Of a DNA stretch of 64,000 bases, positions 33,742 through 50,082 are shown in pieces; position 1 is the stretch's first letter, and every line of letters starts with the position of its first letter. Origin of the DNA: Halieaceae bacterium. GTDB taxonomy: Bacteria > Pseudomonadota > Gammaproteobacteria > Pseudomonadales > Halieaceae. The position numbers were made by a program, and so were the translations under genes. The notes under the pieces were generated by a model, which did no database searches, was not told where the DNA came from, and saw only the letters and a program-made list of their open reading frames with translations. The DNA lies in the NCBI GenBank assembly GCA_963669435.1, contig OY770025.1:3445472-3509471 (forward strand). Reading direction: 5' to 3'.

Positions 33742-33817
33742 AGGCGGAAATGCCCATCAGTTGATCAGGATCTTTTGCCCGTCGCCCCCGACCATTGATC
33801 GGGGGGCGTTATTTGAC

Positions 33818-34198: not shown

Positions 34199-34281
34199 AA
34201 CTTCTCTCCTATATTTCAATAATTACTGCCAGTAGGTTTGTTGATCGATGATTTCTTGTCTGGTAGCACGCTTTTCAGGCG

Positions 34282-35043: not shown

Positions 35044-35212
35044 TTGTTGCCTCTTATCCTAATTGCGCCTTTGAATATTAGACGAATGCCCCACCCCAGG
35101 ACCACAATGTTACTGCGTTAATCGCCGCCAATTGTGGGCGGGTTGGTAGGGTATGCACCGGCCATAATCGTCTAATTGTTCAGATACTGAGTTGATATGG
35201 GGAGTCCCGTTG

Positions 35213-36190: not shown

Positions 36191-36202
36191 GAGAATTTAG
36201 CA

Positions 36203-37189: not shown

Positions 37190-37212
37190 TTGATTAAACC
37201 TCCAGGAGAAAG

Positions 37213-37446
37213 ATGATGAGTACTGAAATTTTACTTCCCAAAATTGGATTTTCGATGACCGGCGCCAAGTTTGTGGAGTGGCACGTCGATGACGGTGCTG
37301 AGGTCAAGGAAGGTGATCTGCTTTATTCCATTGAGAATGATAAAGCCATTGAGGAAGTACCGTCTCCGGGAACGGGCGTGTTGAAGCGGATGGCCGAGGA
37401 AGACGAGGAATATGAAGTTGGCGATGTCTTGGGTCTGCTCGAATGA
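37213..37446 (+). CDS. Stand-alone lipoyl-domain protein (E2 N-terminal domain as a separate 77-aa polypeptide)
   Basis: 'EGDLLYSIENDKAIEEVPSPGTGVL' carries the lipoyl-lysine DKA motif. AGGAGA RBS. The stop overlaps the next start (ATGA at 37443-37446). Confidence 0.8.
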   Translation: MMSTEILLPKIGFSMTGAKFVEWHVDDGAEVKEGDLLYSIENDKAIEEVPSPGTGVLKRMAEEDEEYEVGDVLGLLE

Positions 37447-38350: not shown

Positions 38351-38659
38351 ATGGTTCAGGTAACAGTCCTATACCCCCGTACAGACGGAGCGTCTTTTGA
38401 TTTCGAGTACTATGCAGACCACCATATGGGGCTGGTGAGACGTTTCTTCGGCGAGGACGCGTGGGATATCCAGGTGGAGAGAGGCATAGAGGGCGGACGA
38501 CCGGGTTCAAAGCCTGCCTATGTTGCGCTGTGTCGACTACAGACCCATTCCAGTGAGACCTGGCACAAGTACATCGGCGAAAACTTCGACGAGTTTGTCG
38601 GGGATATTCCTAAATTCACTACAATACAGCCCAAAATCCTCTTCACTGAAATTCTGTGA
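38351..38659 (+). CDS. EthD family protein
   Basis: 102 aa. 'VTVLYPRTDGASFDFEYYADHHMGLV' is typical of the EthD/TIGR02118-like dimeric alpha-beta barrel. Strong AAGGAGG RBS. Confidence 0.7.
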   Translation: MVQVTVLYPRTDGASFDFEYYADHHMGLVRRFFGEDAWDIQVERGIEGGRPGSKPAYVALCRLQTHSSETWHKYIGENFDEFVGDIPKFTTIQPKILFTEIL

Positions 38660-38775
38660 TCTTACAGCCAGCGAGGAATGATAGTGGGGATAATCAAGTG
38701 CTCATAATTGGCAATGAAGTCCTCAGGAGGCATACTTGAGGCAGCCGTTGCTTAATCACCCGTCATGTAACCCTG

Positions 38776-39450
38776 ATGAACAAGCCCAAAGACAAACCCA
38801 TTCGCGAACGTATCCTGGAAACAAGCCTGAGCCTTTTCAACAACCACGGGTACCAGACGACCACGGTGCGAAAGATCGCCCAGCAACTGGACGTAAGCTC
38901 TGGCCACGTCCAGTACCATTTCAAGAGCAAAAATGACATCGCCTTGGCGCATTTCCCTTCGTTGGAGCATGAAATCGAAAGTCAGGTATTGGACGTTGTC
39001 AAACCCGATCAAATGTTTACACCTTATGTAGGTGCCCGGGATGCTATAGCGATAGTCAGGACCATCTGGCGATACCGTTTCATATTTCTCTCGCTCAATA
39101 CCTTGCTCAAGGAAGATGAGGAAATCCGCAGGAGATATTTGAGGCTCCAAGAGTCCATTATCAGCTATGCCGAGTCCGCCTTCCAGCAATTGATAGCGTC
39201 AGGAGAGATGCGCTTACCCGAGTGGCCAAATTCTCCGCGCTCTCTGGCAGAGAGCTGGTGGTACGTGTGGTTGGGCTGGCTACGAACCGAAGAACTGCAG
39301 TATCACGCCCACGATATGCTCCCCGACAAAGTCGTCTACGAGGGGGCTTTGATTACCTTTGGCGTGGTTTCGCCATTTCATAGTGAAGCCTTTGCCGAGG
39401 GCTTCAAACAGAGCTCTCAGGATATATTGCCTGCTTACTCCGGGAATTGA
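38776..39450 (+). CDS. TetR family transcriptional regulator (paralog 2 of 3)
   Basis: 'TTVRKIAQQLDVSSGHVQYHFKSKNDI', 'IWRYRFIFLSL'. Confidence 0.85.
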   Translation: MNKPKDKPIRERILETSLSLFNNHGYQTTTVRKIAQQLDVSSGHVQYHFKSKNDIALAHFPSLEHEIESQVLDVVKPDQMFTPYVGARDAIAIVRTIWRYRFIFLSLNTLLKEDEEIRRRYLRLQESIISYAESAFQQLIASGEMRLPEWPNSPRSLAESWWYVWLGWLRTEELQYHAHDMLPDKVVYEGALITFGVVSPFHSEAFAEGFKQSSQDILPAYSGN

Positions 39451-39589
39451 TTCCCGATTACCGTTTCCCGGACCAGGGGGCAATTCAACGTGTTTCATGC
39501 GACGTGCTGAGGTCTTTGACCTCGGTGTTCGTCTTAAAAGAACAACAGAATGCTACCAGCACTTCCCGTAGGCAATCAGGTGAGACGAG

Positions 39590-41005
39590 ATGAGCAAAGA
39601 AGAAATCTATGATTACGAAAGTGGCTATGTGTCCTACCCACACATCACTGATCCGGACGCGGTAGAGGCGAAAGCCCCCTACATAGATCACGGCACCGAC
39701 AAGCCGGATAAAAATCGATATATAGATCGTGATGAAGCCGAGTTAGAGTGGCAGCACGTATTTCGTAAGACCTGGTTGTTCGCGGGCGTCACCTTCGACC
39801 TTAAGAAAAAAGGCGATTTTTTTACTTACGATATTGGTCGGGAGGCATTCATCGTCCTGAAGGTCGGTGAAGGTGAATCGGACATTAATGTATTTTTCAA
39901 CGTCTGCCCCCATCGTGGTAATCGTCTTGTCACCGATGACTTTGGAAATATCGGCTCCAATTTTTATTGTAATTTTCATGGATGGAAGTTCAATTCCGAA
40001 GGCGAGAATATAAAGGTTAAAGACGAATTTATATTCCGCGAGGAGGCCCTGAAGACAAGGTTGTGCCTGAAAAAGGTGCGTTGTGATATCTGGAATTCTC
40101 TTATATTTATCAATATCGATGGAGAGGCTCAGCCCCTGGAGGATTACCTTGATGTAATCCCAGGGCATCTCAAGAACTACCCCATTGGCGAGTTTCGAGT
40201 GCTGCGTGACTTTGAAGCAGACTGGCCCGCGAATTGGAAAACTGCGATGGACGCATTTGTAGAGTTCTACCACTCTGACGATGTGCATCCCGAACTCATT
40301 CCCATTATGTCGACCTACGACGTGCAGTACGATTTGTACAAAAATGGCATGAGCAGAATGTTTCTCAAAAACGGCTTTGCCCCGCCCAGGTTGAATGATC
40401 GGGAAGAGGTGAACCCTTCGCTCAAGGCCCTGGTAGAGTTGTACGGCGGTAATAATGACGACTTTACCCATCTCAAAGGCCATGAATATAAACAGGCACT
40501 GGTCCAGACCAAGAGAGCGTGGGGCAAGAAACACGGCTACGATTTTTTCGATGATCTGACCGACGACCAGATTACCGATGACTGGAACTATCACATCTTC
40601 CCCAACATTACGCTCAACTGTTTTTCCGATGGTCTGCTGATCCAGCAGTGGAAGCCGCACCCGGACGACCCGAATAAGAGTTACTACTGGGCTCTCACCC
40701 TGTGTCTCCCCGTGGCCGATCCGGAGATTCGGGTAATGGACATTAACAACTTTGGTCCTGACAGCTATGGACCCCCAGGGTGGGATGGCTCTGAAAGGCC
40801 AGAGCGCGAGCGACCCAAGTGGGGAGTACCTGAAGATTGTAACTCCAAGGTGTGGGGTCACGTGTTGTGGCAGGATGCGGAGCGGGTTCCCAATGTGCAT
40901 CAGGGTATGCGATCAGAGGCATTCGATGGCCCAATTCTCTCGGAAGCAGAGATACGTATTCGACATTATCTGGCCGAAATCGATCGGCTAATCGGCAGGG
41001 ACTAA
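39590..41005 (+). CDS. Rieske [2Fe-2S] non-heme-iron oxygenase alpha subunit (paralog A)
   Basis: Rieske 'CPHRGNRL...(19 aa)...CNFHGWKF'. Mononuclear-iron motif 'DAFVEFYHSDDVHPE' (H-x4-H). 471 aa. Confidence 0.85.
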   Translation: MSKEEIYDYESGYVSYPHITDPDAVEAKAPYIDHGTDKPDKNRYIDRDEAELEWQHVFRKTWLFAGVTFDLKKKGDFFTYDIGREAFIVLKVGEGESDINVFFNVCPHRGNRLVTDDFGNIGSNFYCNFHGWKFNSEGENIKVKDEFIFREEALKTRLCLKKVRCDIWNSLIFINIDGEAQPLEDYLDVIPGHLKNYPIGEFRVLRDFEADWPANWKTAMDAFVEFYHSDDVHPELIPIMSTYDVQYDLYKNGMSRMFLKNGFAPPRLNDREEVNPSLKALVELYGGNNDDFTHLKGHEYKQALVQTKRAWGKKHGYDFFDDLTDDQITDDWNYHIFPNITLNCFSDGLLIQQWKPHPDDPNKSYYWALTLCLPVADPEIRVMDINNFGPDSYGPPGWDGSERPERERPKWGVPEDCNSKVWGHVLWQDAERVPNVHQGMRSEAFDGPILSEAEIRIRHYLAEIDRLIGRD

Positions 41006-41034
41006 GCCTCACAAGCCCATTTTGAGCGTACTGT

Positions 41035-41931
41035 ATGGCAATTTCTCCAAACCACAAAATAGTAAGCCCGCCATCGGCGGAAACGATATTCCTGCCTGCC
41101 AACGAATTCGAAGGCCAATCAGTGGTGGTAACGGGAGGTAGCTCTGGTATGGGGCTGGGTATGGCATCGGCTTTTGCTCGTGCTGGCGCGAATGTTGTTG
41201 TTATGGGAAGGTCTGAGGACAAGGCCATGGATGCGGCAGCATTCTTGTCGAGAACCGCCGCAGCCAGTGGTACCTGTTTCGGTGTTGCGGCTGATGTGCG
41301 AGATCCGGATCAGGTCAGTGCCGCATTCGACGTGGCGGAATCCAAGGTCGGCCCTATCTCTATATTGGCCAACAATGCCGGAGGTAATTTCCCGGCGCTT
41401 GCCGAAAAGATATCAACCAACGCCTGGCGGGCGATCTCCAGAATTGCAATTGATGGCACATTCATAGCTTCATCGGAGTTTGCTCGTCGCCTGAAGGGTC
41501 GCGGAGCGATCGGTAGCATTGTCAACAATAGCGCTCAATATATCTGGACTGGATTTCCAGGGGACGCTCATTCCGCCTCGGCCAAAACAGCGGTTGCAAC
41601 AATGACGCGATCGATGGCCCGGGAGTGGAAGGCTGATGGCATACGGGTGAATTGCGTTGCCGCCGGTATGTTTCCCCATGAACAGGCGGCCGCTATGGGT
41701 GGGCTGGACCAGGAAGTACTTGATACGTATGCAGGTATGGTGCCTGCCGGACGGGTTGGTCAAATGCAGGAGTTTGGTTGGGCGTCGGCATTTTTGTGTT
41801 CATCATTGGCCGGGCCGATTTCCGGCCAGGTTTTGATGATCGACGGGGGTGATAGCCTCAGGCGATCCTTGATATCCCCGGCGTATGTTCCCCCCAGGGA
41901 GCGAAAAGAAATTTGGGGATACGAGGCATGA
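41035..41931 (+). CDS. SDR family oxidoreductase (2,4-dienoyl-CoA-reductase-like subgroup)
   Basis: 'VVVTGGSSGMGLGMASAFARAGANVVVMGR', 'LANNAGGNF', 'SASAKTAVATMTRSMAREWKADGIRVNCVAAG'. Confidence 0.8.
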   Translation: MAISPNHKIVSPPSAETIFLPANEFEGQSVVVTGGSSGMGLGMASAFARAGANVVVMGRSEDKAMDAAAFLSRTAAASGTCFGVAADVRDPDQVSAAFDVAESKVGPISILANNAGGNFPALAEKISTNAWRAISRIAIDGTFIASSEFARRLKGRGAIGSIVNNSAQYIWTGFPGDAHSASAKTAVATMTRSMAREWKADGIRVNCVAAGMFPHEQAAAMGGLDQEVLDTYAGMVPAGRVGQMQEFGWASAFLCSSLAGPISGQVLMIDGGDSLRRSLISPAYVPPRERKEIWGYEA

Positions 41932-42527
41932 GTAACGGAGCCCAGTGGTTAGCGGGCAAAGTCGCACTCCTGGTTGGTGAGGGCCCAGGCCTTAAAGCGG
42001 TTGGGGAAGCAATTGTGGCTGCCGGTGGCCAAGTTGAGTACGGGGACTTTTGTGATGATTTGGAGGGCGCCAAGTCGGTGATTGGCGCCCATTCGGGCGA
42101 TCAGACTTCGTCTATCGATATCCTCGTCCATGCGGGTACCCGGCGCGCGCCCGTAGCAAGTGAGACCATGTCACTGGCTGACTGGCGTGATACGATGAAG
42201 GAAAACCTCGACAGCAAATTTTATTACTCCAGCGCCCTGGCCAATCAGGTTATTGGTACGGACCAACGGGCGTCTATTTTGTACCTGGAACCAGCCTCGG
42301 CCATCGATAGTACCTCCTCTATGGCGTCAAATGGTGCCATGAGCAGCCTTACCAAAACGCTGGCGACAGAGTGGGCCAGAGACGGTATTCGTGTTAACGC
42401 GATAACCTCGGACGTGAACTACGAGGGTGGCCTGGCTCAGTTGCAAGCACTGGGGCACCTGGCTACCTATCTGTGCAGCGATTATGCCGCCTATGTTACT
42501 GGCGCCTCCCTCGGGATTGAGGACTAG
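41928..42527 (+). CDS. Degenerate SDR-fold protein lacking catalytic Tyr/Lys (predicted non-catalytic partner subunit)
   Basis: ATG 41928 overlaps the upstream stop (ATGA). 'LAGKVALLVGEGPGLKAVGEAI' replaces TGxxxGxG. 'SMASNGAMSSLTKTLATEWARDGIRVNAI' has S/N where YxxxK is expected. C-terminal 'YLCSDYAAYVTGASLGI' retains the SDR signature. Confidence 0.65.
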   Translation: MSNGAQWLAGKVALLVGEGPGLKAVGEAIVAAGGQVEYGDFCDDLEGAKSVIGAHSGDQTSSIDILVHAGTRRAPVASETMSLADWRDTMKENLDSKFYYSSALANQVIGTDQRASILYLEPASAIDSTSSMASNGAMSSLTKTLATEWARDGIRVNAITSDVNYEGGLAQLQALGHLATYLCSDYAAYVTGASLGIED

Positions 42528-42625
42528 TAGCAGAAATTCCACATGGCCAGGCTCAGCCATGGTCCTTCGCTAGTAAATTCGAAAACCCTGGCGTATGCCA
42601 GGGTCTTCTACTCCTGATTGGAACG

Positions 42626-44035
42626 CTATGCCCTCCCCACAAGTCGATCAATTTCGGCGAGATAATGCCGAATTCGGATCTCCGATTCATTCAGGATGGC
42701 GCCTTTGAACGAGTCAGACTGAATACCCCGCTGAACGAAAGGCACGCGTTCAGCATCCTGCCACATCACTCTGCCCCAAACGTCATAGCCGGTTTCTTCG
42801 GGGTTGTTCCAGTCAGGTCGGAAACATTCGGGTCTGTCAGAGCCATCCCAGCCTTTCGGTCCAAAGCTATCGGGCCCAAAGTTATTAATGTCCATGACAC
42901 GTATCTCGGGGTCGCTCACTGGCAGGCAAAGCGTTAATACGTAGTAGTAGCTCTGGGTAGGATCCGTCGCGTGGGGCTTCCAGGACTGGATCATCAAGCC
43001 ATCCGAGAAGCAGTTTAGAGTCGTATTGGGGAACAAATGATAGTTCCAATCATCGGTAATCTGGTCATCGGTCAGGTCATCAAAAAAATCGTAGCCGTGT
43101 TTTTTACCCCACTTGCGTTTGGTATCGCAAAATGCCGCTTTGAACTCGGTTCCCTTGAGGCCCTTGTAATCATCGATGTTCCCGTCATACATCTCGATGT
43201 ACATTTTCAGGAAGTCGTTGACCTCCTCGGGATTGGGTGTCTTCTCAAATGCCGCGCCATTCCGCAGGAACATGCGGCTGACTCCCTTGTCGTAGCAATC
43301 GTACTGTGAGTCCACGGTGGACATTACCGGTACCACTTCCGGGTGCACATCATCGCCATGATAAAACTCGAGGAAGGCCTCCATGGCAGTCTTCCAGTTG
43401 GTTGGCCACTGGGCCTCGAACTCTCTCAGTACGCGAAATTCGCCAAACTGGTAGTTCTTCAGGTGTTCGGGGATCACGCCCAGCGCCTCATGCAGCGGCT
43501 CTGCATCATCGTCCATGTTGATGAAGATGAGGGAATTCCAGATCTCGCAGCGTACTTTTGGCAGGCATAGGGGGTTCTGTAGCGTTTCTTCCCGGAAGAT
43601 AAATTCGTCCTTGACCCTTATGTTCTCGCCGTGCAGATCCCATTTCCAGCCGTGGAAATTGCAGTAGAAGTTGCCGTCGATATGCCCCCGGTCTTGGGTG
43701 ACGATAAAATTGCCTCGGTGCGGGCAGACGTTATAGTACGCTGCAATGTCATCGCTATCCGGACCATGGCGGACAATGATGAAAGATTCCTTGCCCAGGT
43801 CGTACTTGATGTAGTCTCCAACTTCGGGAACGTCAACAACCAGACCGGCGAAGGTCCAGGTCTTCTTGAACACGTGCTCCCACTCCAGGCCCTGTTCTTC
43901 GTGTGAGTAATAGCGCGTTTTGTCAGGCATGTCCGTGCCGTGATCGATGTAGGGTGCCTTGGCCTCAACCGCGGTCGGGTCAGTGATTTCCGGATAAGAG
44001 ATATACCCCTGCTTGTAGTCAAATTTTGCTGGCAT
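42626..44035 (-). CDS. Rieske [2Fe-2S] non-heme-iron oxygenase alpha subunit (paralog B)
   Basis: ATG 44035 (MPAKFDYKQGYISYPEITDP...) with GGAG RBS. 'CPHRGNFI...CNFHGWKW', 'EAFLEFYHGDDVHPE'. Collinear with paralog A over its whole length. Confidence 0.85.
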   Translation of the reverse strand: MPAKFDYKQGYISYPEITDPTAVEAKAPYIDHGTDMPDKTRYYSHEEQGLEWEHVFKKTWTFAGLVVDVPEVGDYIKYDLGKESFIIVRHGPDSDDIAAYYNVCPHRGNFIVTQDRGHIDGNFYCNFHGWKWDLHGENIRVKDEFIFREETLQNPLCLPKVRCEIWNSLIFINMDDDAEPLHEALGVIPEHLKNYQFGEFRVLREFEAQWPTNWKTAMEAFLEFYHGDDVHPEVVPVMSTVDSQYDCYDKGVSRMFLRNGAAFEKTPNPEEVNDFLKMYIEMYDGNIDDYKGLKGTEFKAAFCDTKRKWGKKHGYDFFDDLTDDQITDDWNYHLFPNTTLNCFSDGLMIQSWKPHATDPTQSYYYVLTLCLPVSDPEIRVMDINNFGPDSFGPKGWDGSDRPECFRPDWNNPEETGYDVWGRVMWQDAERVPFVQRGIQSDSFKGAILNESEIRIRHYLAEIDRLVGRA

Positions 44036-44308
44036 GTTTGTCGCTCCGCTAGTTAGGTTTACCAAAAGTGTTGCTACCGCCCAGTCGGGTGGCGATGAGA
44101 TTTTTCTGATCGACACTCGATCTAATTGAATTGACGGGAGTTGGTGGCACTCCCCTCAGCGCTTCTCGGCCCCATCTGGTTTTGCACTGATGTAAGTCAA
44201 GAAAATAGGCGATTTTGGCGTCAAAGTACGGGTTGGGGTCACCGCTATCCCCAAACGTCTTTATAGGAGTAACGCGATATTGAAACCTGTAATTCAAGGA
44301 GTACCTCG

Positions 44309-45901
44309 GTGGCAAGCCAATATGACATTGTTTGCGTTGGAGCGGGCAGTAACACCCTTGTTGCCGCTGCGTATCTGGCGAAAGCCGGTAAGAAGGTTTT
44401 ATTACTGGAGAAAAATAGTCAGGCCGGAGGCGGTGTCGTTTCCGTAAATATTGCGCCAGGTTTTGTCCATGACCCGCATGCTACGGGTTACATTTCTTTC
44501 CAGGCCAACCCTGCAATTAAGGATGATGAGTTGGGCTTGTTTTCCCAGTTTGGATTGGAAACTTTTACTTATGAGGCCAGCTTCGCCAGTATATTTGATT
44601 CGGGAGATGGTCTGATTTCGTACACGGATCTTGATCGATCCTGCCAGGAATTGGCGAAATATTCCCAGCGCGACGCTGATAATTACCGGGCGTTTGTCGG
44701 TCGGGCGCAGCAGGTGTTACCCATGCTCGCCCGTGGCGCATCAACGCCTCCCTTGCCCATGTCCGGTTTCTTTAATCTTCTGCAGGGTAGCCCTCTCGCC
44801 GAAGAATTGGCCAGCGCGTTGTTCAAAAGCGCTTATGACATTATCGAGGAGTTGTTCGAATCGGTGGAGGCAAAGCTGCACTATGCAAAATGGTGTGCTG
44901 AGGTCATGGAGAATCCTGAAACCAAGGGCACTGGCATCGTGATGTATAACCTTTGCGGATTGGCACACACCTACGAAGCGCTGGCGATAACCGGAGGTTC
45001 GAAGAACTTAACCAATGCGCTCATTCGCGCGGTCGAACATTACGGCGGAGAGCTCATTACCGGCGCCGAGGTTACCAAGGTCAAAATTGAATCCGGTGTT
45101 GCCAAGGGCGTCGAGCTGAAGGATGGTCAGTTTATTGCCGCGAAAGACGCGGTGCTTGGCTGTATCCATCCCTGGAATCTCGGCACTGTAATTCCAGAAA
45201 TCGATCCGGGAGTGGCGGAGCGCGCGCGGCAGGTGAAGCTCAGCGGCCATGGGGCGATAAATCAGCAGATAGCCTTGACGGAACATCCCCAGTTTAAGGC
45301 TGACAACCCCGACGTTTACCACGACGCCATGTGTGTCGAATACGTGCCGAAGAATCTGGACGGAATCCGCAAAAGTTTCGATATGTACCGTTACGGTGAA
45401 CTCCCCGACGAATTCATCAGCCCCATGACGATGCTACATTCCCGCAAGGATCCCAGCCGGGTTCCGGATGCCGACAAGTGCGCGATGTATTTGTACCACT
45501 TTGCCCCCAGAGTGCTGAAAGATGGCGGTCTGCAGGGGTGGGAGCGACACCGGGAGGAATTCGCGGATGCAATCTGGGAAAGGTTTAAGCAATACACCAC
45601 CAACATGGATGACAGCAAAATTATAGCTCGGCTTGTGGAATCTCCGCAGGACCATCACAACCACTCTGCAAGTATGGTTAATGGTGACATCATCGGCATT
45701 GGTACGACAGTTGGGCAATTGAATGCCCACCGACCCAACGCGGAGCTTTCTAACTACACGGTCCCTGGATTGGAGCAATTCTATCTTGCCGGACCCTTCA
45801 TGCATCCGGGTGGTACCGTCTTATTTGGTGGGCGTGCCACGGCCATCAAGATGTGCAAGGACATGGGAATTCCTCTCAAGTCTGCGTTCGATTATATCTA
45901 G
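44309..45901 (+). CDS. NAD(P)/FAD-dependent oxidoreductase (phytoene-desaturase/CrtI-like family)
   Basis: GTG start 7 nt after AAGGAG. 'YDIVCVGAGSNTLVAAAYLAKAGKKVLLLEKNSQAGGG'. 530 aa. Confidence 0.8.
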   Translation: MASQYDIVCVGAGSNTLVAAAYLAKAGKKVLLLEKNSQAGGGVVSVNIAPGFVHDPHATGYISFQANPAIKDDELGLFSQFGLETFTYEASFASIFDSGDGLISYTDLDRSCQELAKYSQRDADNYRAFVGRAQQVLPMLARGASTPPLPMSGFFNLLQGSPLAEELASALFKSAYDIIEELFESVEAKLHYAKWCAEVMENPETKGTGIVMYNLCGLAHTYEALAITGGSKNLTNALIRAVEHYGGELITGAEVTKVKIESGVAKGVELKDGQFIAAKDAVLGCIHPWNLGTVIPEIDPGVAERARQVKLSGHGAINQQIALTEHPQFKADNPDVYHDAMCVEYVPKNLDGIRKSFDMYRYGELPDEFISPMTMLHSRKDPSRVPDADKCAMYLYHFAPRVLKDGGLQGWERHREEFADAIWERFKQYTTNMDDSKIIARLVESPQDHHNHSASMVNGDIIGIGTTVGQLNAHRPNAELSNYTVPGLEQFYLAGPFMHPGGTVLFGGRATAIKMCKDMGIPLKSAFDYI

Positions 45902-45919
45902 CTAAATTGGGAGACCAGC

Positions 45920-46129
45920 ATGAAATTGTACGCGTCAGATAACTCTGAACTGATGGAAGTGGAATCCATCGAACGGGTGGATAACAACCTGGTTGTCGAA
46001 GGCACAATCATGGGATCTATGCCTATTCGGGCAACAGTCAAACCTGCCGAGGTGCGCAAGGTCTTTAAGTTGCTGAGTTTCAGCACGATTATTTTTGCCA
46101 TCAGCATGCTGTTCCGCGGTTCCAGGTAA
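45920..46129 (+). CDS. Small hypothetical protein with C-terminal hydrophobic helix
   Basis: 69 aa, GGGAGA RBS, C-terminal 'VFKLLSFSTIIFAISMLF'. Wedged between the FAD oxidoreductase and the mutase with short spacers. Confidence 0.4.
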   Translation: MKLYASDNSELMEVESIERVDNNLVVEGTIMGSMPIRATVKPAEVRKVFKLLSFSTIIFAISMLFRGSR

Positions 46130-46175
46130 ACCTGCTTCCTGTGTTCAGCCCGGAATTGCCGGAGATCAAAAGCCA

Positions 46176-47819
46176 ATGAGTGACGACAAAAATTCCGCGA
46201 TTGAGAGCGTCAAGGTCAAGCTCTCTCGAACCAGGACCTGGGGCGGTATGGAGACCGAGAATGTCTACAGACCTGAGACAGGGATCGACCAGGAGTATGA
46301 AGAGAAACTCGGCGACCCTGGCCAGTACCCCTACACCCGAGGTGTTTCGGAAAGTGGTTATCGCAGAAAAATGTGGACGCTTCGCAACATCGTCGGATAC
46401 GGCGCGCCAGAAGATACGCTTGAAGGAATTAGAAGCGCGTTGGCAGCGGGTACGGCAGGGATTAATGTTGTACCGGATGCGCTGACCCAGCAAGCGGTCG
46501 ATCCCGATCATCCGGCGTTTGGGGTGGAAGTAGGTGCGGAGGGATGTTCCATCGCCTGCGCCCGGGATATGGAGCGACTGACTCAGGATATAGATATCAC
46601 TCAGTCAGGTGTTGCCTACCACTATGGCATGCTGGCATACGCCGTTTCGGCTGCAGTTGCCACCAGGCGTGGTATATCGCTGGACAAGATGTTGGGCTCT
46701 TCCATGCCTGACTTTCTTTCCTATTCACTATCTGGTTGGGGTCAGCAGGTTTTCCCGGCCGCCTTCGCTCATAAGGCGACACTGGATTGTCTCGAATTCT
46801 CCACCCAAAATAGCCCCTACTGGGCCGTTGCTATGCCGCAGGCCTATGACTTGCGCGAGAGGGGGGCGCCACCCTGGGGCGAGATTGCCTATGGTATGGC
46901 GATCGTCAACAGGACCATGGAAGATCTTGTTTCCCGTGGTCTGAGTGTTGATGAAGTGGCACCGAGCCTCGCCTGGGTGTCTACCTCGGACATCGACTTC
47001 TTTGAAGAAGTGGCCAAGTTCAGGGCTGTGCGGCGCGTATGGGCCCGTACCATGAAGGAGCGGTTTGGCGCGACCAACCCCAGGGCAATGAGCATCCGCA
47101 TGGCCTGCCACACTGCCGGAAAATCCCTGGTCTACCAGCAGCCGCTGAATAATCTCAGCCGGGTGGCAATCCAGTCGTTTGCGGCACTCTGCGGAGGTGT
47201 TCAATCCCTGGAAGCCTGCACCTTCGATGAACCGATCTGTATTCCCACTCCCGAAGCCCGAGAGTTGGCAACCCGCACCCAGCAGATACTGGCTCACGAA
47301 GTTGGAGCGGCGCGGACAATAGATCCTCTGGGAGGAAGCTACTATGTCGAGGCGTTGACCGACGAGATAGAAAGTCGTGCTCTGGCAATGCTGGCCGATA
47401 TCGAGGAAAAAGGCATCGTCGAGGCAATAGCCGACGGCTCGTTGGAGAAGCTCATGGATGAGCACAACCTGACGCAGGAGCGTGAAATGGCGTCCAAGGA
47501 TCGGATCATGGTCGGTCGAAACGATTTTGTTCCTGGAGAGGAAGAGCAACCGAAACGCTTCACTTTTGATAAAGAGAATACGCGCAAGCATATTGCGCGA
47601 TTTATTGAGATGAAGAAAACCCGGGACAACGACTTGTTGCAAGATAAGCTACGTAAGTTGTATCTCATCGCGCAGGGCGACGATAATTTCCACCAGGCGA
47701 TGATTGATGCTTTTGTCGCGGATGGTACTATCGGTGAAGTCTGGGGTACCGTGAGGATGGCGAACGGTCTCAGCTACGACCCATTCCACGTGATTGAGTC
47801 GCCGTTCTCCTTTAACTGA
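46176..47819 (+). CDS. Coenzyme-B12-dependent acyl-CoA mutase, large (substrate-binding) subunit, divergent
   Basis: 'PGQYPYTRGV', 'ACHTAGKSLVYQQPLNNLSRVAIQSFAALCGGVQSLEACTFDE', 'IDPLGGSYYVEALT' are methylmalonyl-CoA-mutase-family blocks. ATG 46176 is preferred over the listed TTG 46095. Confidence 0.85.
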   Translation: MSDDKNSAIESVKVKLSRTRTWGGMETENVYRPETGIDQEYEEKLGDPGQYPYTRGVSESGYRRKMWTLRNIVGYGAPEDTLEGIRSALAAGTAGINVVPDALTQQAVDPDHPAFGVEVGAEGCSIACARDMERLTQDIDITQSGVAYHYGMLAYAVSAAVATRRGISLDKMLGSSMPDFLSYSLSGWGQQVFPAAFAHKATLDCLEFSTQNSPYWAVAMPQAYDLRERGAPPWGEIAYGMAIVNRTMEDLVSRGLSVDEVAPSLAWVSTSDIDFFEEVAKFRAVRRVWARTMKERFGATNPRAMSIRMACHTAGKSLVYQQPLNNLSRVAIQSFAALCGGVQSLEACTFDEPICIPTPEARELATRTQQILAHEVGAARTIDPLGGSYYVEALTDEIESRALAMLADIEEKGIVEAIADGSLEKLMDEHNLTQEREMASKDRIMVGRNDFVPGEEEQPKRFTFDKENTRKHIARFIEMKKTRDNDLLQDKLRKLYLIAQGDDNFHQAMIDAFVADGTIGEVWGTVRMANGLSYDPFHVIESPFSFN

Positions 47820-47836
47820 AACTTGGCAGGCAATCT

Positions 47837-48262
47837 ATGAACGACAGTGCAAATCCGCAATCCGGTAAAATTCGCTGTTTACTCGGAATGCTCGGTACTG
47901 ATGTGCACAGCAAGGGAATTCGGACCCTGGCCCAGTTGTTGCGTGACGCGGGAATCGAGGTGATCTATATCGGCGAGCATAATACCGTACCTGGAATGGT
48001 GCGATCTATTATCGTCGAAGATGCCGATGTCGTCGGACTCAGTTTTTTGTCGTCCAACTATCTGGACTACTGCGAACAGTTACGCGATGAAATGCGTGAC
48101 GCCGGGGCCTCAGACACACCCGTGATGGTTGGTGGGATCATCCATCAGGAAGACTATGAAGCCCTCGGAGCACTCGGTGTATCGGGCATTTTTGGGCCGG
48201 GCTCCACCACCCAGGACGTTCTGGATTTTCTGCAGCAGGCCACCGGTAAGACGCTCAACTGA
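47837..48262 (+). CDS. Acyl-CoA mutase small subunit (cobalamin-binding domain)
   Basis: 'LLGMLGTDVHSKGIRTLAQLLRDAGIEVIYIG' contains the base-off/His-on DxHxxG motif. 141 aa. Confidence 0.85.
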   Translation: MNDSANPQSGKIRCLLGMLGTDVHSKGIRTLAQLLRDAGIEVIYIGEHNTVPGMVRSIIVEDADVVGLSFLSSNYLDYCEQLRDEMRDAGASDTPVMVGGIIHQEDYEALGALGVSGIFGPGSTTQDVLDFLQQATGKTLN

Positions 48263-48309
48263 TTGGGTCGTTACGATCGTACCGGTTGATGTTCAAACCC
48301 CGTTGAAGC

Positions 48310-49254
48310 ATGGAACCCCTGGACTTGGAACAAATAATCTCAGCTCTGCGAGCAGGGGAGCTGCGCACTGCCGCCAGGCTTATTAGCCGGATTGAAAACA
48401 ACGATCCTGAACTGCTCCCTCTGCTCAAGAAACTTTATCTTCTCGGCGGTAATACCCAGGTTGTGGGTATCACCGGTCCCCCTGGTGCGGGAAAGAGCAC
48501 ACTGGTAAACCAGCTCGTAAGCAGCTATCGGCAAAATGATAAGCGTGTAGCTGTACTGGCCGTGGACCCTTCCAGCCCATTCAGCGGGGGCGCCATTCTG
48601 GGAGACAGGGTGCGAATGAGCCGACATGATGCTGACCCGGGCGTTTTTATCCGCAGTATGGCCAGTCGCGGCAGCCTCGGGGGGCTGGCAAATGCGGCAG
48701 CGGACACAATCAGCTTGCTCGATATCATGGGCTGGGACCTGATCATTGTTGAGACGGTCGGGGTAGGGCAGAACGAACTCGAGATTATGCGACATGCAGA
48801 TACGGTAGTACTTATTCAAACACCGGAGTCCGGTGATGCGGTGCAGGCTGTGAAAGCGGGAGTTCTGGAAATTGGAGACATTTTCGCGGTAAACAAAGCC
48901 GATCACCATGACGCTGATAAACTGGCTGCCGCAATTGCGGATATGGTTGCCAGCAAGGGTTTAGTCGAGGGCTGGATACCTGAGGTCATTAAGACGGAGG
49001 CGGTCTCCGGGAAAGGTATTGATGAGCTCATGACTCATATAGGGGCTCACCAGAACTTCCTTAAAGATAGCACCCCGGCAGTACGGGCCAGAAATCTGCA
49101 GAAAGTGAGATTTCGCGTATTGGACATCTGCAAACAGAATGCCACCAGAAAGCTGCTTGAAGGCCAATACGCCTCCGATATTGAACCGAAGCTGTCGGCA
49201 GTCGTTGATCGCGAGTCCGATCCCTACACAGTCGCTGCGGAACTCATAGACTAG
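48310..49254 (+). CDS. meaB: Methylmalonyl-CoA-mutase-associated G3E GTPase (MeaB/ArgK family)
   Basis: P-loop 'GITGPPGAGKSTL', 'VDPSSPFSGGAILGDRVRM', 'VETVGVGQ', 'NKAD'. Confidence 0.9.
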   Translation: MEPLDLEQIISALRAGELRTAARLISRIENNDPELLPLLKKLYLLGGNTQVVGITGPPGAGKSTLVNQLVSSYRQNDKRVAVLAVDPSSPFSGGAILGDRVRMSRHDADPGVFIRSMASRGSLGGLANAAADTISLLDIMGWDLIIVETVGVGQNELEIMRHADTVVLIQTPESGDAVQAVKAGVLEIGDIFAVNKADHHDADKLAAAIADMVASKGLVEGWIPEVIKTEAVSGKGIDELMTHIGAHQNFLKDSTPAVRARNLQKVRFRVLDICKQNATRKLLEGQYASDIEPKLSAVVDRESDPYTVAAELID

Positions 49255-49389
49255 TCTTGCCGACTTTGTCACTTTTTTCAGGACCTTATTGAGGTACAGC
49301 CTTCTCGGATTCGTCACAATCTATGGGCATGTTAGGAATGCTTGAGTATGATGCGAGGTGGCATCGGGGCGCTCAAGTCAAAACTACTT

Positions 49390-50082
49390 ATGAACACTAA
49401 AGAACGGATCATTCTTAAGAGTATCGAGCTATTCAATCGCGACGGGGTAGATGGCGTTCCGCTTCACCGTATCGCCGCTGAACTCGGGATGAGCCCCGGG
49501 AACTTAACCTACCATTACAAAAACAAGGACGAGCTGATTGCGGCCATCTACCCCAGCATGGCAGATGCACTGAAGCAGGCACTGCGGCTTCCGGCGGACG
49601 CAGATCGCCCTTTGTCAGCTGCTTATGTCGCACAGTATCAAATTGGTATCTTAAGAGTCCTCTGGAGCTACCGGTTTTTCTTTATAGGCTTGAAGTCCAT
49701 CCTGGCGAAAGACCCCGCGTTGGAAGCTGAGTACTGGCAGTTTCATGATTGGGTGATCGATAGGCTGGGACGATTACTCGAAGGGGAGATCGAAGCCAAA
49801 GGCATGAGACCAATCCTTCCCCCCAGTACAACCGCTGTCGTAGCCACTAACCAATGGTATTTGTGGGTGAGTTTTCTGTTCTTCCAGGGACATGAGAGCA
49901 AGGTCCAGAATTTGGACATTCAGGAAGTTATCTACAATGGTGTGCTGCGCAACTTCAGTCTGTTGCTTCCATACTGTACCGAGTCTTTCGCTGAGCAATT
50001 TGTGTGCGAATGTCGCAGGCAACTGGAAATTGACCTGGCCGACGAAACTATCGATGGATTCCACGCCGTTATGTCTGGCTAA
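49390..50082 (+). CDS. TetR family transcriptional regulator (paralog 3 of 3)
   Basis: ATG 49390 (MNTKERIILKSIELFN...). 'LHRIAAELGMSPGNLTYHYKNKDELI', 'LWSYRFFFIGL'. Confidence 0.85.
   Translation: MNTKERIILKSIELFNRDGVDGVPLHRIAAELGMSPGNLTYHYKNKDELIAAIYPSMADALKQALRLPADADRPLSAAYVAQYQIGILRVLWSYRFFFIGLKSILAKDPALEAEYWQFHDWVIDRLGRLLEGEIEAKGMRPILPPSTTAVVATNQWYLWVSFLFFQGHESKVQNLDIQEVIYNGVLRNFSLLLPYCTESFAEQFVCECRRQLEIDLADETIDGFHAVMSG

What the first reader, a model, noticed from the sequence alone, without database searches (positions are those of the whole stretch)
38351..50082. TetR-bracketed supercluster: candidate uncharacterised pathway for a compound needing oxygenation plus carbon-skeleton rearrangement
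One contiguous block with short spacers contains:
- EthD-family protein
- TetR
- Rieske oxygenase A
- dienoyl-CoA-reductase-like SDR
- degenerate SDR
- Rieske oxygenase B
- CrtI-like FAD oxidoreductase
- 69-aa membrane-anchored peptide
- divergent B12 acyl-CoA mutase (large and small subunits)
- MeaB
- a second TetR of the same subfamily

Immediately upstream are the E1/split-E2 genes, a family III CoA-transferase/racemase, a crotonase and a thioesterase.

Among pathways I know, a Rieske monooxygenase combined with a B12 acyl-CoA mutase and a MeaB-type chaperone is best known from tertiary-alcohol / 2-hydroxyisobutyrate degradation (MdpJ plus HcmAB/MeaH). EthD was first defined in an ether-oxygenate degradation cluster.

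That similarity is only by family, not by demonstrated orthology. It suggests a substrate with a tertiary or quaternary carbon, such as a branched, isoprenoid-derived or tertiary-alcohol compound. I know of no described pathway with this exact gene set.
Basis: inference. Interest (0 to 1): 0.7.

Follow-up and report, generated by a model that had tools for sequence, protein, structure and literature searches.

The report
Rieske oxygenase plus divergent B12 mutase module
This is a real, uncharacterised bacterial breakdown gene cluster whose conserved core pairs an oxygen-inserting Rieske enzyme with an unusual vitamin-B12 enzyme that rearranges carbon skeletons, a pairing found in many soil and marine bacteria and probably used to degrade branched, hard-to-oxidise compounds.

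Summary
All the listed genes are present at 38351-50082. Rieske B is on the minus strand, so the block is at least three transcription units.

- an alpha-only Rieske monooxygenase;
- a two-subunit AdoCbl acyl-CoA mutase;
- MeaB;
- a PF13972-type TetR.

This core recurs in Alpha-, Beta- and Gammaproteobacteria and in peat and soil metagenomes. It usually comes with an acyl-CoA ligase coupled to the mutase, a Rieske-type ferredoxin, crotonases and acyl-CoA dehydrogenases. A PDH-like E1ab plus free lipoyl domain is a less frequent companion. EthD, the CrtO-like flavoprotein with its 69-aa partner, and the SDR pair are conserved only in close relatives.

The mutase belongs to no characterised clade. 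It is 36% identical to HcmA and 30% to human MCM. Its active-site residues are replaced and invariant across the clade: Tyr89→Ile, Arg207→Trp, His244→Asp, Gln330→His, Asn366→Cys.

Best reading (about 0.5): a pathway with MdpJ/HCM-like logic for a hydrophobic branched, probably isoprenoid or alicyclic, substrate. The steps would be hydroxylation, CoA activation, a B12-dependent 1,2-shift past a fully substituted carbon, then beta-oxidation. The substrate is unknown. Eight literature searches found no description of this module. I class it as a new variant of a known kind.

The parts
35192..38192 (+). PDH/acetoin-dehydrogenase-like E1 alpha (35192-36190) and E1 beta (36203-37189). The E2 is split into a free 77-aa lipoyl domain with a DKA motif (37213-37446) and a catalytic core (37443-38192) that overlaps it by 4 nt.
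   Evidence: Pfam. NCBIfam: E1b PRK09212 scores 342.7 against a cut-off of 321; E1a TIGR03182 scores 283, below 394; the E2 core resembles PDH acetyltransferase. PDB: PDH E1a scores 166 bits, BCKDH 115. Co-located with the mutase clade in L001, L082, L085, L096, L103, L115 and L143.
38351..38659 (+). EthD-family small protein (102 aa).
   Evidence: TIGR02118, 63.7 bits against a cut-off of 30.5. No Pfam hit. An orthologue was found only in the close relative L001, at 70% identity.
38776..39450 (+). TetR regulator 1 (PF00440 + PF13972 C-terminal domain).
   Evidence: TetRs of the PF13972 type sit next to the module in L084, L139, L142 and L143.
39590..41005 (+). Rieske non-heme-iron oxygenase A. 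It is alpha-only, with no beta-subunit gene. It has the Rieske motif CPH...CxxH and the iron motif EFYHxxxxH.
   Evidence: Pfam. Family alignment invariants C106/H108/C127/H130 and H228/H233. AF2 model with pLDDT 83.8, and folds Stc2/CntA/BphA1 at TM about 0.6. Orthologues at 50-57% identity lie next to the mutase in 13 loci.
41035..41931 (+). SDR resembling 2,4-dienoyl-CoA / enoyl-CoA reductases (298 aa).
   Evidence: PRK07677 at 189 bits, below the cut-off of 318. 'AHSASAK' motif. 74% orthologue in L001.
41913..42527 (+). Truncated, degenerate SDR (204 aa). It overlaps the preceding SDR by 19 nt and lacks the YxxxK catalytic motif.
   Evidence: It is conserved as a 194-aa gene (55% identical) beside the SDR298 orthologue in L001, so it is probably a real non-catalytic partner subunit.
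42626..44116 (-). Rieske oxygenase B, a paralogue of A (67% identity), on the minus strand.
   Evidence: An inverted repeat in the 98-bp convergent spacer, read directly from the sequence, could be a terminator; the terminator scan did not flag it.
44309..45901 (+). FAD oxidoreductase of the CrtI/CrtO (phytoene desaturase) superfamily (530 aa).
   Evidence: NCBIfam CrtO at 208 bits against a cut-off of 1000, and crtI_fam at 63 against 238. Only a weak PDB hit, to CrtI 4dgk. Its family is broad and unnamed. Found next to the mutase in L001, L096 and L105.
45920..46129 (+). 69-aa protein with a C-terminal hydrophobic anchor. It is the conserved partner of the FAD protein.
   Evidence: Sequence. 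No family hit. Follows the FAD gene in L001 (80% identity) and L096 (46%). A 67% homologue is also present in L141.
46176..47819 (+). Large (substrate-binding) subunit of a divergent AdoCbl-dependent acyl-CoA mutase. The longest ORF starts at 46095; the database protein starts at 46176.
   Evidence: PF01642 at 430 bits. MCM equivalog at 296 bits against a cut-off of 876. HcmA 306 bits and 36% identity; MMUT 224 bits and 30% identity. Clade-invariant active-site replacements.
47837..48262 (+). Small B12-binding subunit (141 aa) with DVHSKG, i.e. the DxHxxG motif.
   Evidence: PF02310 and TIGR00640. Motif.
48310..49254 (+). MeaB-type G-protein chaperone.
   Evidence: PF03308 at 286.7 bits. TIGR00750 at 320.6 bits against a cut-off of 240.75.
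49342..50082 (+). TetR regulator 2 (PF13972). It has a 62% orthologue in the relative's cluster.
29671..35043 (.). Upstream accessory genes: 4HBT thioesterase (29671-30093 +), SDR (30314-31108 +), crotonase (31848-32525 +), family III CoA-transferase (32563-33741 +), VOC/glyoxalase-fold protein (33818-34219 -) and SDR (34282-35043 -).
   Evidence: The CoA-transferase has a 67% orthologue in the relative's cluster.

Best explanation
The region is a multi-operon catabolic island. Its evolutionarily conserved core has four parts:
- an alpha-only Rieske monooxygenase (two paralogues here);
- a heterodimeric adenosylcobalamin-dependent acyl-CoA mutase of a new subfamily;
- its MeaB chaperone;
- PF13972-type TetR repressors.

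Proposed mechanism (the steps are inferred unless marked shown):
1. A hydrophobic, branched substrate is taken up through the neighbouring TonB-dependent receptors. It is probably isoprenoid-derived or alicyclic.
2. The Rieske enzymes hydroxylate an unactivated carbon. Shown: both have intact Rieske and 2-His iron motifs.
3. Dehydrogenases take the product to a carboxylate or ketone.
4. The acid is made into a CoA thioester. In most relatives a ligase fused in translation to the mutase gene does this. In this window the family III CoA-transferase or the E1/E2 system presumably does it.
5. The mutase moves the -CO-SCoA group from a fully substituted alpha-carbon to the neighbouring carbon. Shown: the CoA-binding and B12-binding motifs are intact. 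Shown: the carboxylate-binding Arg207 position holds Trp, and the pocket residues are Ile, Val, Met, Trp and Cys, which argues for an uncharged, bulky acyl group.
6. Crotonases, acyl-CoA dehydrogenases, SDRs and a thiolase finish by beta-oxidation. The thiolase and the dehydrogenases are present in the relative's version of the cluster.
7. The PDH-like E1ab, lipoyl domain and E2 release acetyl-CoA from a methyl-ketone or acyloin-type intermediate.
8. The CrtO-like flavoprotein with its 69-aa partner, the DECR-like SDR pair and EthD are lineage-specific accessories for unsaturated or ring parts of the substrate.
For: Gene identities.

Synteny of the core:
- Closest relative, with rearranged order: L001 + L139.
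- Sphingobium faniae, L082.
- Gammaproteobacterial MAG, L084.
- Paraburkholderia plasmid, L085.
- Rhizorhabdus argentea, L143, and L142.
- Hydrocarboniphaga, L002.
- 53 metagenome loci retrieved with a clade-specific motif.

Counts and neighbours:
- A Rieske orthologue is present in 13 of 32 loci of at least 5 kb and in 7 of 14 of at least 12 kb.
- An acyl-CoA ligase abuts the mutase gene (ORF ends within about 26 bp, often overlapping) in about 17 loci.
- A Rieske ferredoxin follows MeaB in L082, L103, L115, L116, L128, L142 and L143.

Mutase:
- It is divergent: 296 bits against the MCM cut-off of 876, 36% identity to HcmA and 30% to MMUT.
- Most of the signature (I, M, Y, H, E, C) is identical in all 35 core-clade loci, and W and D in 32-34 of them, so the protein is under purifying selection and is not a decaying MCM.
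- The CoA-contact motif YPxTRG...YRxRxWTxR is conserved.
- DxHxxG is present in the small subunit.

Context: TonB receptors, PQQ alcohol dehydrogenases, WS/DGAT, a lipase and a CoA ligase surround the cluster.
Against: - No substrate, transcript or enzyme data exist. The direction and chemistry of the mutase step are inferred only from family membership and pocket residues.
- The catalytic His244 of known acyl-CoA mutases is Asp here. The enzyme may therefore use a different mechanism or substrate class than I assume.
- The window's cluster has no ligase, no ferredoxin or reductase for the Rieske enzymes, no acyl-CoA dehydrogenase and no thiolase. The pathway cannot be closed from the window alone.
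- E1/E2, FAD530, EthD and the SDR pair are absent from most loci. Their roles in one pathway are the weakest part of the model.
- No shared TetR operator was found upstream of the operons.
- Half of the longer mutase loci lack the Rieske gene within 10 kb.
Confidence: 0.5

Rival explanations
1. HCM-like alpha-hydroxylation route. The Rieske enzyme hydroxylates the tertiary C-alpha of a 2-methyl-branched acyl-CoA whose beta-carbon cannot be oxidised, for example one that is aryl or quaternary. This gives a 2-hydroxy-2-methylacyl-CoA. The mutase converts it directly to a 3-hydroxyacyl-CoA, as HcmAB does with 2-hydroxyisobutyryl-CoA. The new Asp at the His244 position would bind the hydroxyl in place of HcmA Asp117.
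For: - HcmA is the closest characterised relative, and Ile90 is kept.
- An invariant new carboxylate, Asp225, sits in the active site while the Asp117 position is Val.
- A family III CoA-transferase/racemase-type protein and a VOC (epimerase-fold) protein lie upstream, as expected if stereoisomers of 2-methylacyl-CoA matter.
- SDRs that could act as 3-hydroxyacyl-CoA dehydrogenases are abundant.
Against: - Nothing shows that this Rieske family acts on CoA esters.
- Only 36% identity to HcmA.
- The VOC and CoA-transferase genes are not part of the conserved core.
- The role proposed for Asp225 is pure inference.
Confidence: 0.15
2. Substituted succinyl-/malonyl-CoA mutase. It would be analogous to the phenylsuccinyl-CoA/benzylmalonyl-CoA mutase IaaGH, or to the proposed alkylsuccinyl-CoA mutases. 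It would work with the family III CoA-transferase and a bbs-like beta-oxidation set.
For: - A family III CoA-transferase sits next to crotonases, an SDR, acyl-CoA dehydrogenases and a thiolase in the relative's cluster.
- IaaGH-type mutases with IaaL-type transferases are known (PMC8360864).
Against: - The carboxylate-binding Arg207 position is an invariant Trp, and no compensating basic residue is evident in the signature.
- Most loci use a monocarboxylate-type AMP-forming ligase, not a CoA-transferase.
- The organisms concerned are aerobes.
Confidence: 0.1
3. The block is a chance juxtaposition of unrelated catabolic operons within a large lipid/hydrocarbon island. On this view only the mutase-MeaB unit works as a unit, and the Rieske oxygenases act in another pathway.
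For: - Rieske B is on the opposite strand, and there are several transcription units.
- EthD, FAD530, the SDR pair and E1/E2 are not widely conserved with the mutase.
- Zhongshania has the Rieske gene alone.
- Variovorax has the ligase and mutase without the Rieske gene.
- No shared operator was found.
Against: - Adjacency of this rare Rieske family to this mutase clade recurs in three proteobacterial classes and across subclades of the mutase tree, often within 2 kb and on the same strand, with a Rieske ferredoxin after MeaB.
- The closest relative keeps all components together despite rearrangement.
Confidence: 0.12
4. Ordinary propionate metabolism. On this view the mutase is just a diverged methylmalonyl-CoA mutase with MeaB, serving propionyl-CoA from odd-chain or branched-chain beta-oxidation.
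For: - Public annotations call it 'methylmalonyl-CoA mutase family protein'.
- Beta-oxidation genes are nearby.
Against: - The MCM equivalog score is 296 against a cut-off of 876.
- Tyr89, Arg207 and His244 are all replaced.
- No propionyl-CoA carboxylase is in the cluster.
- A VOC-fold protein is present, but it gave no NCBIfam match at E<=1e-10.
Confidence: 0.03

Closest known systems
2-Hydroxyisobutyryl-CoA mutase HcmAB with MeaH, working downstream of the Rieske-type tert-butanol monooxygenase MdpJ (Aquincola tertiaricarbonis; structure 4R3U)
   Same: - The architecture matches: separate large and small subunits plus a MeaB-type G-protein.
- It is the best-scoring solved homologue (306 bits).
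- Ile is kept at the MCM-Tyr89 position.
- The pathway logic is the same: a Rieske monooxygenase plus a B12 mutase to get past a fully substituted carbon.
   Different: - Only 36% identical.
- The hydroxyl-binding Asp117 is Val, the catalytic His is Asp, and Gln and Asn are His and Cys.
- This Rieske protein's nearest folds are Stc2/CntA/BphA1 at TM about 0.6. MdpJ itself could not be compared.
- The partners differ here: ligase, E1/E2, beta-oxidation genes and TonB receptors point to a larger hydrophobic substrate.
Methylmalonyl-CoA mutase with MeaB (MCM; P. shermanii 1REQ, human MMUT)
   Same: - Same Pfam family, PF01642, plus PF02310.
- CoA-contact motif and DxHxxG cobalamin motif conserved.
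- MeaB partner present.
   Different: - 30% identity.
- Below the equivalog cut-off (296 against 876).
- Tyr89→Ile, Arg207→Trp and His244→Asp. The roles of these residues are from my own knowledge of the MCM literature (Mancia & Evans; Thoma, Evans & Leadlay; Maiti & Banerjee), not from a paper read here.
Isobutyryl-/pivalyl-CoA mutases (ICM, IcmF, PCM)
   Same: They act on uncharged branched acyl-CoAs, including a quaternary alpha-carbon (pivalyl-CoA). This is the chemistry proposed here.
   Different: - IcmF matches only weakly (105 bits in PDB; 126 bits in NCBIfam).
- The ICM-type signature (Phe at position 89, Gln at 207, and Tyr-His kept) is seen in other representatives (e.g. P0389, P0464) but not in this clade.
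Quaternary-ammonium Rieske monooxygenases CntA, Stc2 and GbcA (alpha3 type)
   Same: - They are alpha-only Rieske oxygenases.
- CntA is the best profile hit, and these are among the best fold matches.
- The Rieske and 2-His motifs are present.
   Different: - 15-17% identity and TM about 0.6.
- The GbcA equivalog scores 107 bits against a cut-off of 670.
- The catalytic domain is about 100 residues longer.
- The gene context is acyl-CoA metabolism, not amine metabolism.
Acetoin / pyruvate dehydrogenase E1ab-E2 systems (AcoABC, PDH)
   Same: - A TPP-dependent heterotetramer-type E1 alpha and beta.
- A lipoyl domain with the DKA motif.
- An acetyltransferase-like E2 core.
   Different: - The E2 is split into a free 77-aa lipoyl protein and a 249-aa core.
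- Sphingomonad versions have no E2 core gene beside E1ab and lipoyl.
- There is no E3 gene.
- E1a is below the PDH equivalog cut-off.
CrtO beta-carotene ketolase / CrtI-family flavoproteins
   Same: Full-length similarity to CrtO (positions 3-505 of the protein, 208 bits).
   Different: - Far below the cut-off of 1000.
- It has a conserved 69-aa membrane-anchored partner.
- The gene context is catabolic.
- The family is unnamed in public records.

Membership tests
AdoCbl-dependent acyl-CoA mutase superfamily | PF01642 substrate (TIM-barrel) domain together with a PF02310 B12-binding domain carrying DxHxxG | tested here: met
   PF01642 at 430.5 bits; PF02310 at 70.8 bits; DVHSKG in the small subunit.
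Methylmalonyl-CoA mutase (MCM) | Reaches the NCBIfam equivalog PRK09426 cut-off | tested here: not met
   295.9 bits against a cut-off of 876.
Methylmalonyl-CoA mutase (MCM) | Tyr89, Arg207 (carboxylate binding) and His244 (P. shermanii numbering) | tested here: not met
   These positions are Ile, Trp and Asp (Ile in all core-clade loci, Trp and Asp in nearly all). The Arg207 alignment is uncertain by about 1 residue.
2-Hydroxyisobutyryl-CoA mutase (HCM) | Ile90 and Asp117 (HcmA numbering), the latter binding the substrate hydroxyl | tested here: not met
   The Ile is kept; Asp117 is Val or Ala in all clade members. 36% identity.
Isobutyryl-CoA mutase (ICM/IcmF) | Phe at MCM-89 and Gln at MCM-207, with Tyr-His kept; reaches the IcmF equivalog | tested here: not met
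   Ile, Trp and Tyr-Asp are found instead. IcmF model at 125.8 bits against a cut-off of 1500.
Ethylmalonyl-CoA, pivalyl-CoA and phenylsuccinyl-CoA (IaaGH) mutases | Phylogenetic placement within those clades | not testable with these tools
   No reference sequences or models for these clades were available. Only the signatures of anonymous representatives could be compared.
MeaB G-protein chaperone | Reaches the TIGR00750 equivalog cut-off; encoded next to a mutase | tested here: met
   320.6 bits against 240.75; 47 bp downstream of the small subunit.
Rieske non-heme iron oxygenase, alpha subunit | Rieske CxH...CxxH cluster motif plus the mononuclear iron His-x4-His motif in a PF00848 domain | tested here: met
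   PF00355 + PF00848. Invariant C106, H108, C127, H130, H228 and H233.
Glycine betaine / carnitine monooxygenase (GbcA, CntA) | Reaches the equivalog cut-off; close structural match | tested here: not met
   GbcA at 107 bits against 670. CntA at TM 0.6 and 15% identity.
MdpJ-type tertiary alcohol monooxygenase | Orthology to MdpJ | not tested
   No MdpJ sequence or model was available in the tools.
CrtO / CrtI carotenoid enzymes | Reaches the NF045689 (CrtO) or TIGR02734 (crtI_fam) cut-offs | tested here: not met
   208 bits against 1000, and 63 against 238.
EthD family | Reaches the TIGR02118 cut-off | tested here: met
   63.7 bits against 30.5.
2,4-Dienoyl-CoA reductase (SDR type) | Reaches the PRK07677 cut-off | tested here: not met
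   189 bits against 318. A DECR-like SASAK motif is present, so the status is 'like' only.
PDH-type E1 | Reaches curated cut-offs for E1 alpha and beta | tested here: inconclusive
   E1b PRK09212 (subfamily) at 342.7 bits against 321: met. E1a TIGR03182 at 283 against 394: not met.

The most novel reading that the evidence does not exclude
The clade would be a new functional class of adenosylcobalamin acyl-CoA mutase. It would replace the canonical His244/Gln330/Asn366 catalytic constellation with Asp/His/Cys and an added Glu. It would catalyse a rearrangement not yet described, for example on bulky 2,2-dialkyl, alicyclic or aryl-substituted acyl-CoAs, or a ring contraction or expansion. Together with its dedicated Rieske monooxygenase and ferredoxin, it would give aerobic bacteria a general, widespread way to break quaternary carbons in terpenoid-like and alicyclic organic matter.
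Probability: 0.25. Interest if true: 0.85.

Novelty: new variant of a known kind. Interest (0 to 1): 0.62.

Why it matters
Only a handful of acyl-CoA mutase reactions are known: MCM, ICM, PCM, ECM, HCM/RCM and the proposed IaaGH. Each has opened both a metabolic pathway and a biocatalytic tool.

This clade is widespread. It occurs in sphingomonads, Burkholderiales, Cellvibrionales-like marine bacteria and in peat and soil metagenomes. Its active site is rebuilt but strictly conserved. It has a dedicated oxygenase partner, which gives a ready handle for finding the substrate by induction, knock-out or TetR-ligand screening.

If the substrate carries a quaternary or tertiary carbon, the module would explain how aerobes mineralise branched terpenoid or alicyclic compounds that block beta-oxidation.

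Tried and rejected
1. A genome-contig scan with the full mutase alignment was wasted. The tool chose motifs common to all mutases, and only one of 80 loci (L002) belonged to the clade. I repaired this with a sub-alignment of a clade-specific segment for the metagenome scan.
2. I searched for a shared TetR operator or palindrome in ten intergenic regions and found nothing convincing.
3. The sigma-70 promoter and intrinsic terminator scan gave promoter hits no more frequent than in shuffles and listed no terminator in the intergenic spacers of the cluster, so it was uninformative for defining operons.
4. Exact-sequence look-ups for the source organism gave no name. The taxon is inferred only from best hits (Zhongshania 68%, Halieaceae 62-64%).
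5. Eight literature searches and checks of candidate papers gave no description of the module. The papers checked covered estrogen degradation (PMC7793797), Ambrox degradation (PMC13599519) and naphthenic acids (PMC10710301). None of the three reports a dedicated mutase: two do not mention one, and the estrogen paper cites only methylmalonyl-CoA mutase for propionyl-CoA. The Sphingobium Chol11 bile-salt preprints mention a Rieske monooxygenase but no mutase.
6. A steroid-catabolism reading was considered and set aside. No KshA/KstD/Hsa-type genes are in the window and no literature links them.
7. The PDB sequence search for the DUF7064 protein was uninformative.
8. Papers on HCM and RCM active sites (Kurteva-Yaneva 2015, Weichler 2015) were not held. 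Residue roles therefore rest on my own knowledge.

Full report
OBSERVATION

- EthD, 38351-38659: TIGR02118, 63.7 bits against a cut-off of 30.5. No Pfam hit.
- PF13972-type TetR, 38776-39450.
- Rieske oxygenase A, 39590-41005.
- A 298-aa SDR. Its best match is 2,4-dienoyl-CoA reductase at 189 bits, below the cut-off of 318.
- A 204-aa truncated SDR that overlaps the previous SDR by 19 nt.
- Rieske oxygenase B, 42626-44116.
- A CrtO/CrtI-like flavoprotein, 44309-45901.
- A 69-aa ORF with a C-terminal hydrophobic anchor.
- The mutase large subunit. The database start is 46176, giving 547 aa.
- The B12-binding small subunit with a DVHSKG motif.
- MeaB, above its equivalog cut-off.
- A second PF13972 TetR, 27% identical to the first.

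Two corrections apply. Rieske B is on the minus strand, so the block has at least three transcription units:
- EthD and TetR1 (each with its own spacer), then RieskeA-SDR298-SDR204;
- RieskeB, convergent with the SDR pair;
- FAD-pep69-mutL-mutS-MeaB-TetR2, divergent from RieskeB across 192 bp.

The two Rieske proteins are 67%-identical paralogues.

Two SDRs and a VOC-fold protein are also there and were not mentioned.

IS THE CLUSTER CO-CONSERVED?

I collected loci in four ways:
- exact-protein look-ups of mutase homologues;
- an annotated plasmid;
- a metagenome scan seeded with a clade-specific segment of the mutase, [RK]MWTLRNI / VGYGAPED, which returned 53 loci;
- reciprocal look-ups starting from Rieske homologues.

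tblastn of all window proteins against these loci gave the following.

- Orthologues of the Rieske protein (50-57% identity) are present in 13 of 32 mutase loci of at least 5 kb, and in 7 of 14 of at least 12 kb. They are usually within 2 kb of the mutase and often on the same strand.
- The Rieske family is small, about 370 proteins at E<=1e-30 among 5.8 billion. Many of its members sit on contigs of the same length as mutase hits. Chance adjacency is therefore not credible.
- Of five Rieske-anchored look-ups, three have the whole mutase module nearby and a fourth has only the small subunit and MeaB. Only the Zhongshania copy is solitary.
- Carriers include Sphingobium faniae, Rhizorhabdus argentea, Novosphingobium, Paraburkholderia sp. 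PGU19 (plasmid), Variovorax, Hydrocarboniphaga, Halieaceae MAGs and many peat and soil metagenomes.

Unsupervised clustering of all ORFs in the loci showed further partners.

- The most frequent partner of the mutase is an AMP-forming acyl-CoA ligase. Its ORF abuts the mutase ORF (ends within about 26 bp, often overlapping) in about 17 loci. The window's cluster lacks it. The nearest homologue (43% identity) is at 61438-63039(-).
- A Rieske-type ferredoxin follows MeaB in at least seven loci.
- A crotonase often precedes the mutase.
- PDH-like E1ab plus a free lipoyl domain occurs in seven clade loci in all (six of the 32 that are at least 5 kb) and in L143.
- PF13972 TetRs recur.
- EthD and the SDR298/SDR204 pair are found only in the 83%-identical relative. 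FAD530 with its 69-aa partner is found in three loci.
- That relative keeps the whole set within about 35 kb but in a different order. It adds three acyl-CoA dehydrogenases, a 601-aa crotonase-family (ECH-domain) protein and a thiolase in the Rieske operon.

The conserved unit is therefore Rieske + mutase + MeaB + TetR, with ligase, ferredoxin, E1ab-lipoyl and beta-oxidation genes as frequent additions.

THE MUTASE

It belongs to the acyl-CoA mutase superfamily (PF01642 at 430 bits) but to no characterised member.

- The MCM equivalog scores 296 bits against a cut-off of 876. The IcmF equivalog scores 126 against 1500.
- The best solved homologue is HcmA (306 bits, 36% identity), followed by human MMUT (224 bits, 30%).

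Residue-by-residue alignments to HcmA and to human, M. tuberculosis and P. shermanii MCM, plus a 40-sequence alignment of locus-encoded proteins, show a near-invariant signature (P. shermanii numbering):

| Canonical residue | In this clade |
|---|---|
| Tyr89 | Ile |
| Ser114 | Asn/Asp/Ser |
| Ala116 (HcmA Asp117) | Val |
| Phe117 | variable (Pro/Val/Ile/Leu/Phe) |
| Gln197 | Met |
| Arg207 region | Trp |
| Tyr243 | Tyr |
| His244 | Asp |
| Gln330 | His |
| His before Asn366 | Glu |
| Asn366 | Cys |

The CoA-contact motif (YPxTRG...YRxRxWTxR) is conserved. The functional roles of Tyr89, Arg207 and His244 come from my own knowledge of the MCM literature; the papers were not held.

Invariance across three proteobacterial classes argues for an active enzyme under selection. 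Loss of the carboxylate-binding Arg and a pocket of Ile, Val, Met, Trp and Cys argue for an uncharged, bulky acyl group. The one variable pocket position tracks sub-clades, which suggests related but non-identical substrates.

A profile search of 1.84 billion representatives adds context.

- The core clade collapses to one full-length 50%-identity representative (851 bits). Its own pocket residues differ slightly from the core signature (Tyr and Asn at the Trp and Asp positions).
- It is followed by a continuum of neighbouring uncharacterised groups (515 bits and below).
- Several of these share the Tyr-Asp...His...Cys core.
- The superfamily as a whole holds a very large variety of active-site signatures. 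This clade is one well-defined member of a largely unexplored radiation.

THE OTHER PARTS

The Rieske proteins have intact cluster and iron motifs and no beta subunit. An AF2 model (pLDDT 83.8) matches Stc2, CntA, TM1040_3219 and BphA1 about equally, at TM about 0.6 and 15-20% identity. They form a distinct family. No reductase or ferredoxin gene is in the window.

E1 is closer to PDH than to BCKDH, and the E2 core resembles an acetyltransferase. The system therefore probably releases acetyl-CoA. This fits cleavage of a methyl-ketone or acyloin intermediate better than formation of a long acyl-CoA.

SDR298 has a DECR-type active-site motif. SDR204 lacks catalytic residues but is conserved in the relative, so it is probably a structural partner.

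The flanks hold two nearly identical TonB receptors, two PQQ alcohol dehydrogenases, ECF sigma/FecR pairs, luciferase-like monooxygenases, APH-type kinases, DUF7064, WS/DGAT, a patatin lipase, an esterase and a CoA ligase. Several of these families also sit beside the mutase in S. faniae and in L097, L142 and L143: DUF7064, APH, an amine-oxidase-like FAD protein and F420_oxidored.

MECHANISM

My best-supported reading (about 0.5) is a catabolic route with MdpJ/HCM-like logic for a hydrophobic branched substrate:
1. uptake;
2. Rieske hydroxylation;
3. oxidation to the acid;
4. CoA activation;
5. a B12-dependent 1,2-shift of the thioester carbonyl away from a fully substituted carbon;
6. beta-oxidation, with acetyl release by E1/E2.

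Shown here: the gene identities, the cofactor motifs, the co-conservation and the pocket composition. Inferred: every chemical step and the nature of the substrate.

The surrounding isoprenoid/steroid-type families make a terpenoid-like or alicyclic substrate the most likely class, but this is weak evidence. These families are CrtI-like and HpnE-like flavoproteins, DUF1295, SRPBCC, SnoaL, and APH + ACAD pairs.

Rival readings:
- an HCM-like route through 2-hydroxy-2-methylacyl-CoA, in which the new Asp binds the hydroxyl (0.15);
- a substituted-succinyl-CoA mutase like IaaGH (0.1; the Trp at the Arg207 position argues against it);
- a chance juxtaposition of modules (0.12);
- ordinary MCM (0.03).

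KNOWN OR NEW

Eight full-text searches and inspection of candidate papers found no description of this Rieske-mutase module. Public records call the proteins only 'methylmalonyl-CoA mutase family protein' and 'aromatic ring-hydroxylating dioxygenase subunit alpha'.

A Rieske monooxygenase feeding a B12 mutase is a known pathway type (MdpJ/HcmAB), and the enzymes belong to known superfamilies. I therefore class the finding as a new variant of a known kind, not categorically new. I score interest at 0.62. The reasons for interest are a widespread clade, a rebuilt catalytic site and a clear experimental path. The limits are that the function is unproven and that many such orphan mutase clades exist.

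Noticed in passing
window 17607-20075 (+) and 26272-29040 (+): Two TonB-dependent receptors are 97% identical over 781 aa, and identical over roughly the last 700 residues. This points to a recent duplication or gene conversion of about 2 kb. The second copy carries an extra N-terminal extension and follows an ECF sigma/FecR pair, which is the transducer type. Two PQQ alcohol dehydrogenases lie between the two receptors.
   Followed up: partly
window 4368-5405(-), 6944-8056(+), 11680-12447(+), 50990-51457(-); L084 5058-9079; L143 17868-18435: The window of this proteobacterium holds F420-type genes: two luciferase-like monooxygenases, an F420_oxidored protein and a PF04075 deazaflavin-dependent reductase. 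A fused CofC/CofH-type F420 biosynthesis gene lies just upstream of the mutase in L084, and an F420_oxidored gene follows the module in L143. This may mean a deazaflavin dependence of the wider pathway.
   Followed up: no
window 1-14000 compared with L082 (Sphingobium faniae), L097, L142: The same unusual gene families accompany the mutase module in distant taxa and also occur 30-45 kb upstream in this window. They are DUF7064/DUF7065, two DAP_DH_C-like proteins, large APH-type kinases and an amine-oxidase-like FAD protein. The functional island may therefore be much larger than the flagged block.
   Followed up: partly
window 37213-38192; L082 13408-15635; L143 1385-3617: The E2 is split. A free 77-aa lipoyl protein overlaps a separate 249-aa catalytic core by 4 nt. 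In the sphingomonad loci E1a, E1b and the lipoyl protein are present, but no E2 core gene is adjacent.
   Followed up: partly
L141 (ena:ERZ25069412:ctg853832) 8507-11386: The B12-binding small subunit, MeaB and the Rieske oxygenase are adjacent, but no mutase large subunit lies within 10 kb. A 67% homologue of the 69-aa peptide sits next to a COX3-like gene there, without the FAD protein in view.
   Followed up: no
representative library hits P0365-P0514: Uncharacterised mutase-like proteins show a very wide range of residues at the canonical Tyr89, Arg207, His244, Gln330 and Asn366 positions. Recognisable MCM-, ICM- and HCM-type signatures are a minority among the top 150 representatives. The acyl-CoA mutase superfamily looks functionally far more diverse than the characterised members suggest.
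   Followed up: partly
window 2086-2748 (+), 24444-25004 (+), 50393-50941 (+), 51592-52146 (-): The window holds a third PF13972-type TetR and three ECF sigma factors. One ECF sigma lies directly after TetR2. The relative's cluster shows the same TetR-ECF sigma-Rieske neighbourhood (L139).
   Followed up: no
window 53259-63039 (-): A downstream lipid block holds WS/DGAT wax-ester synthase, SDRs, a patatin-like lipase with DUF3336, a TonB receptor, an Abhydrolase_3 esterase and the AMP-forming CoA ligase. That ligase is the nearest homologue (43% identity) of the ligase coupled to the mutase in other genomes.
   Followed up: partly
plasmid hits H3-H19: Distant full-length homologues (33-38% identity) of the Rieske protein occur on sphingomonad megaplasmids. 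Examples include Rhizorhabdus wittichii DC-6, Novosphingobium resinovorum and a series of Sphingobium 'Tom' strains. They form a wider Rieske family whose members are annotated only generically (ring-hydroxylating dioxygenase alpha subunit or hypothetical protein).
   Followed up: no
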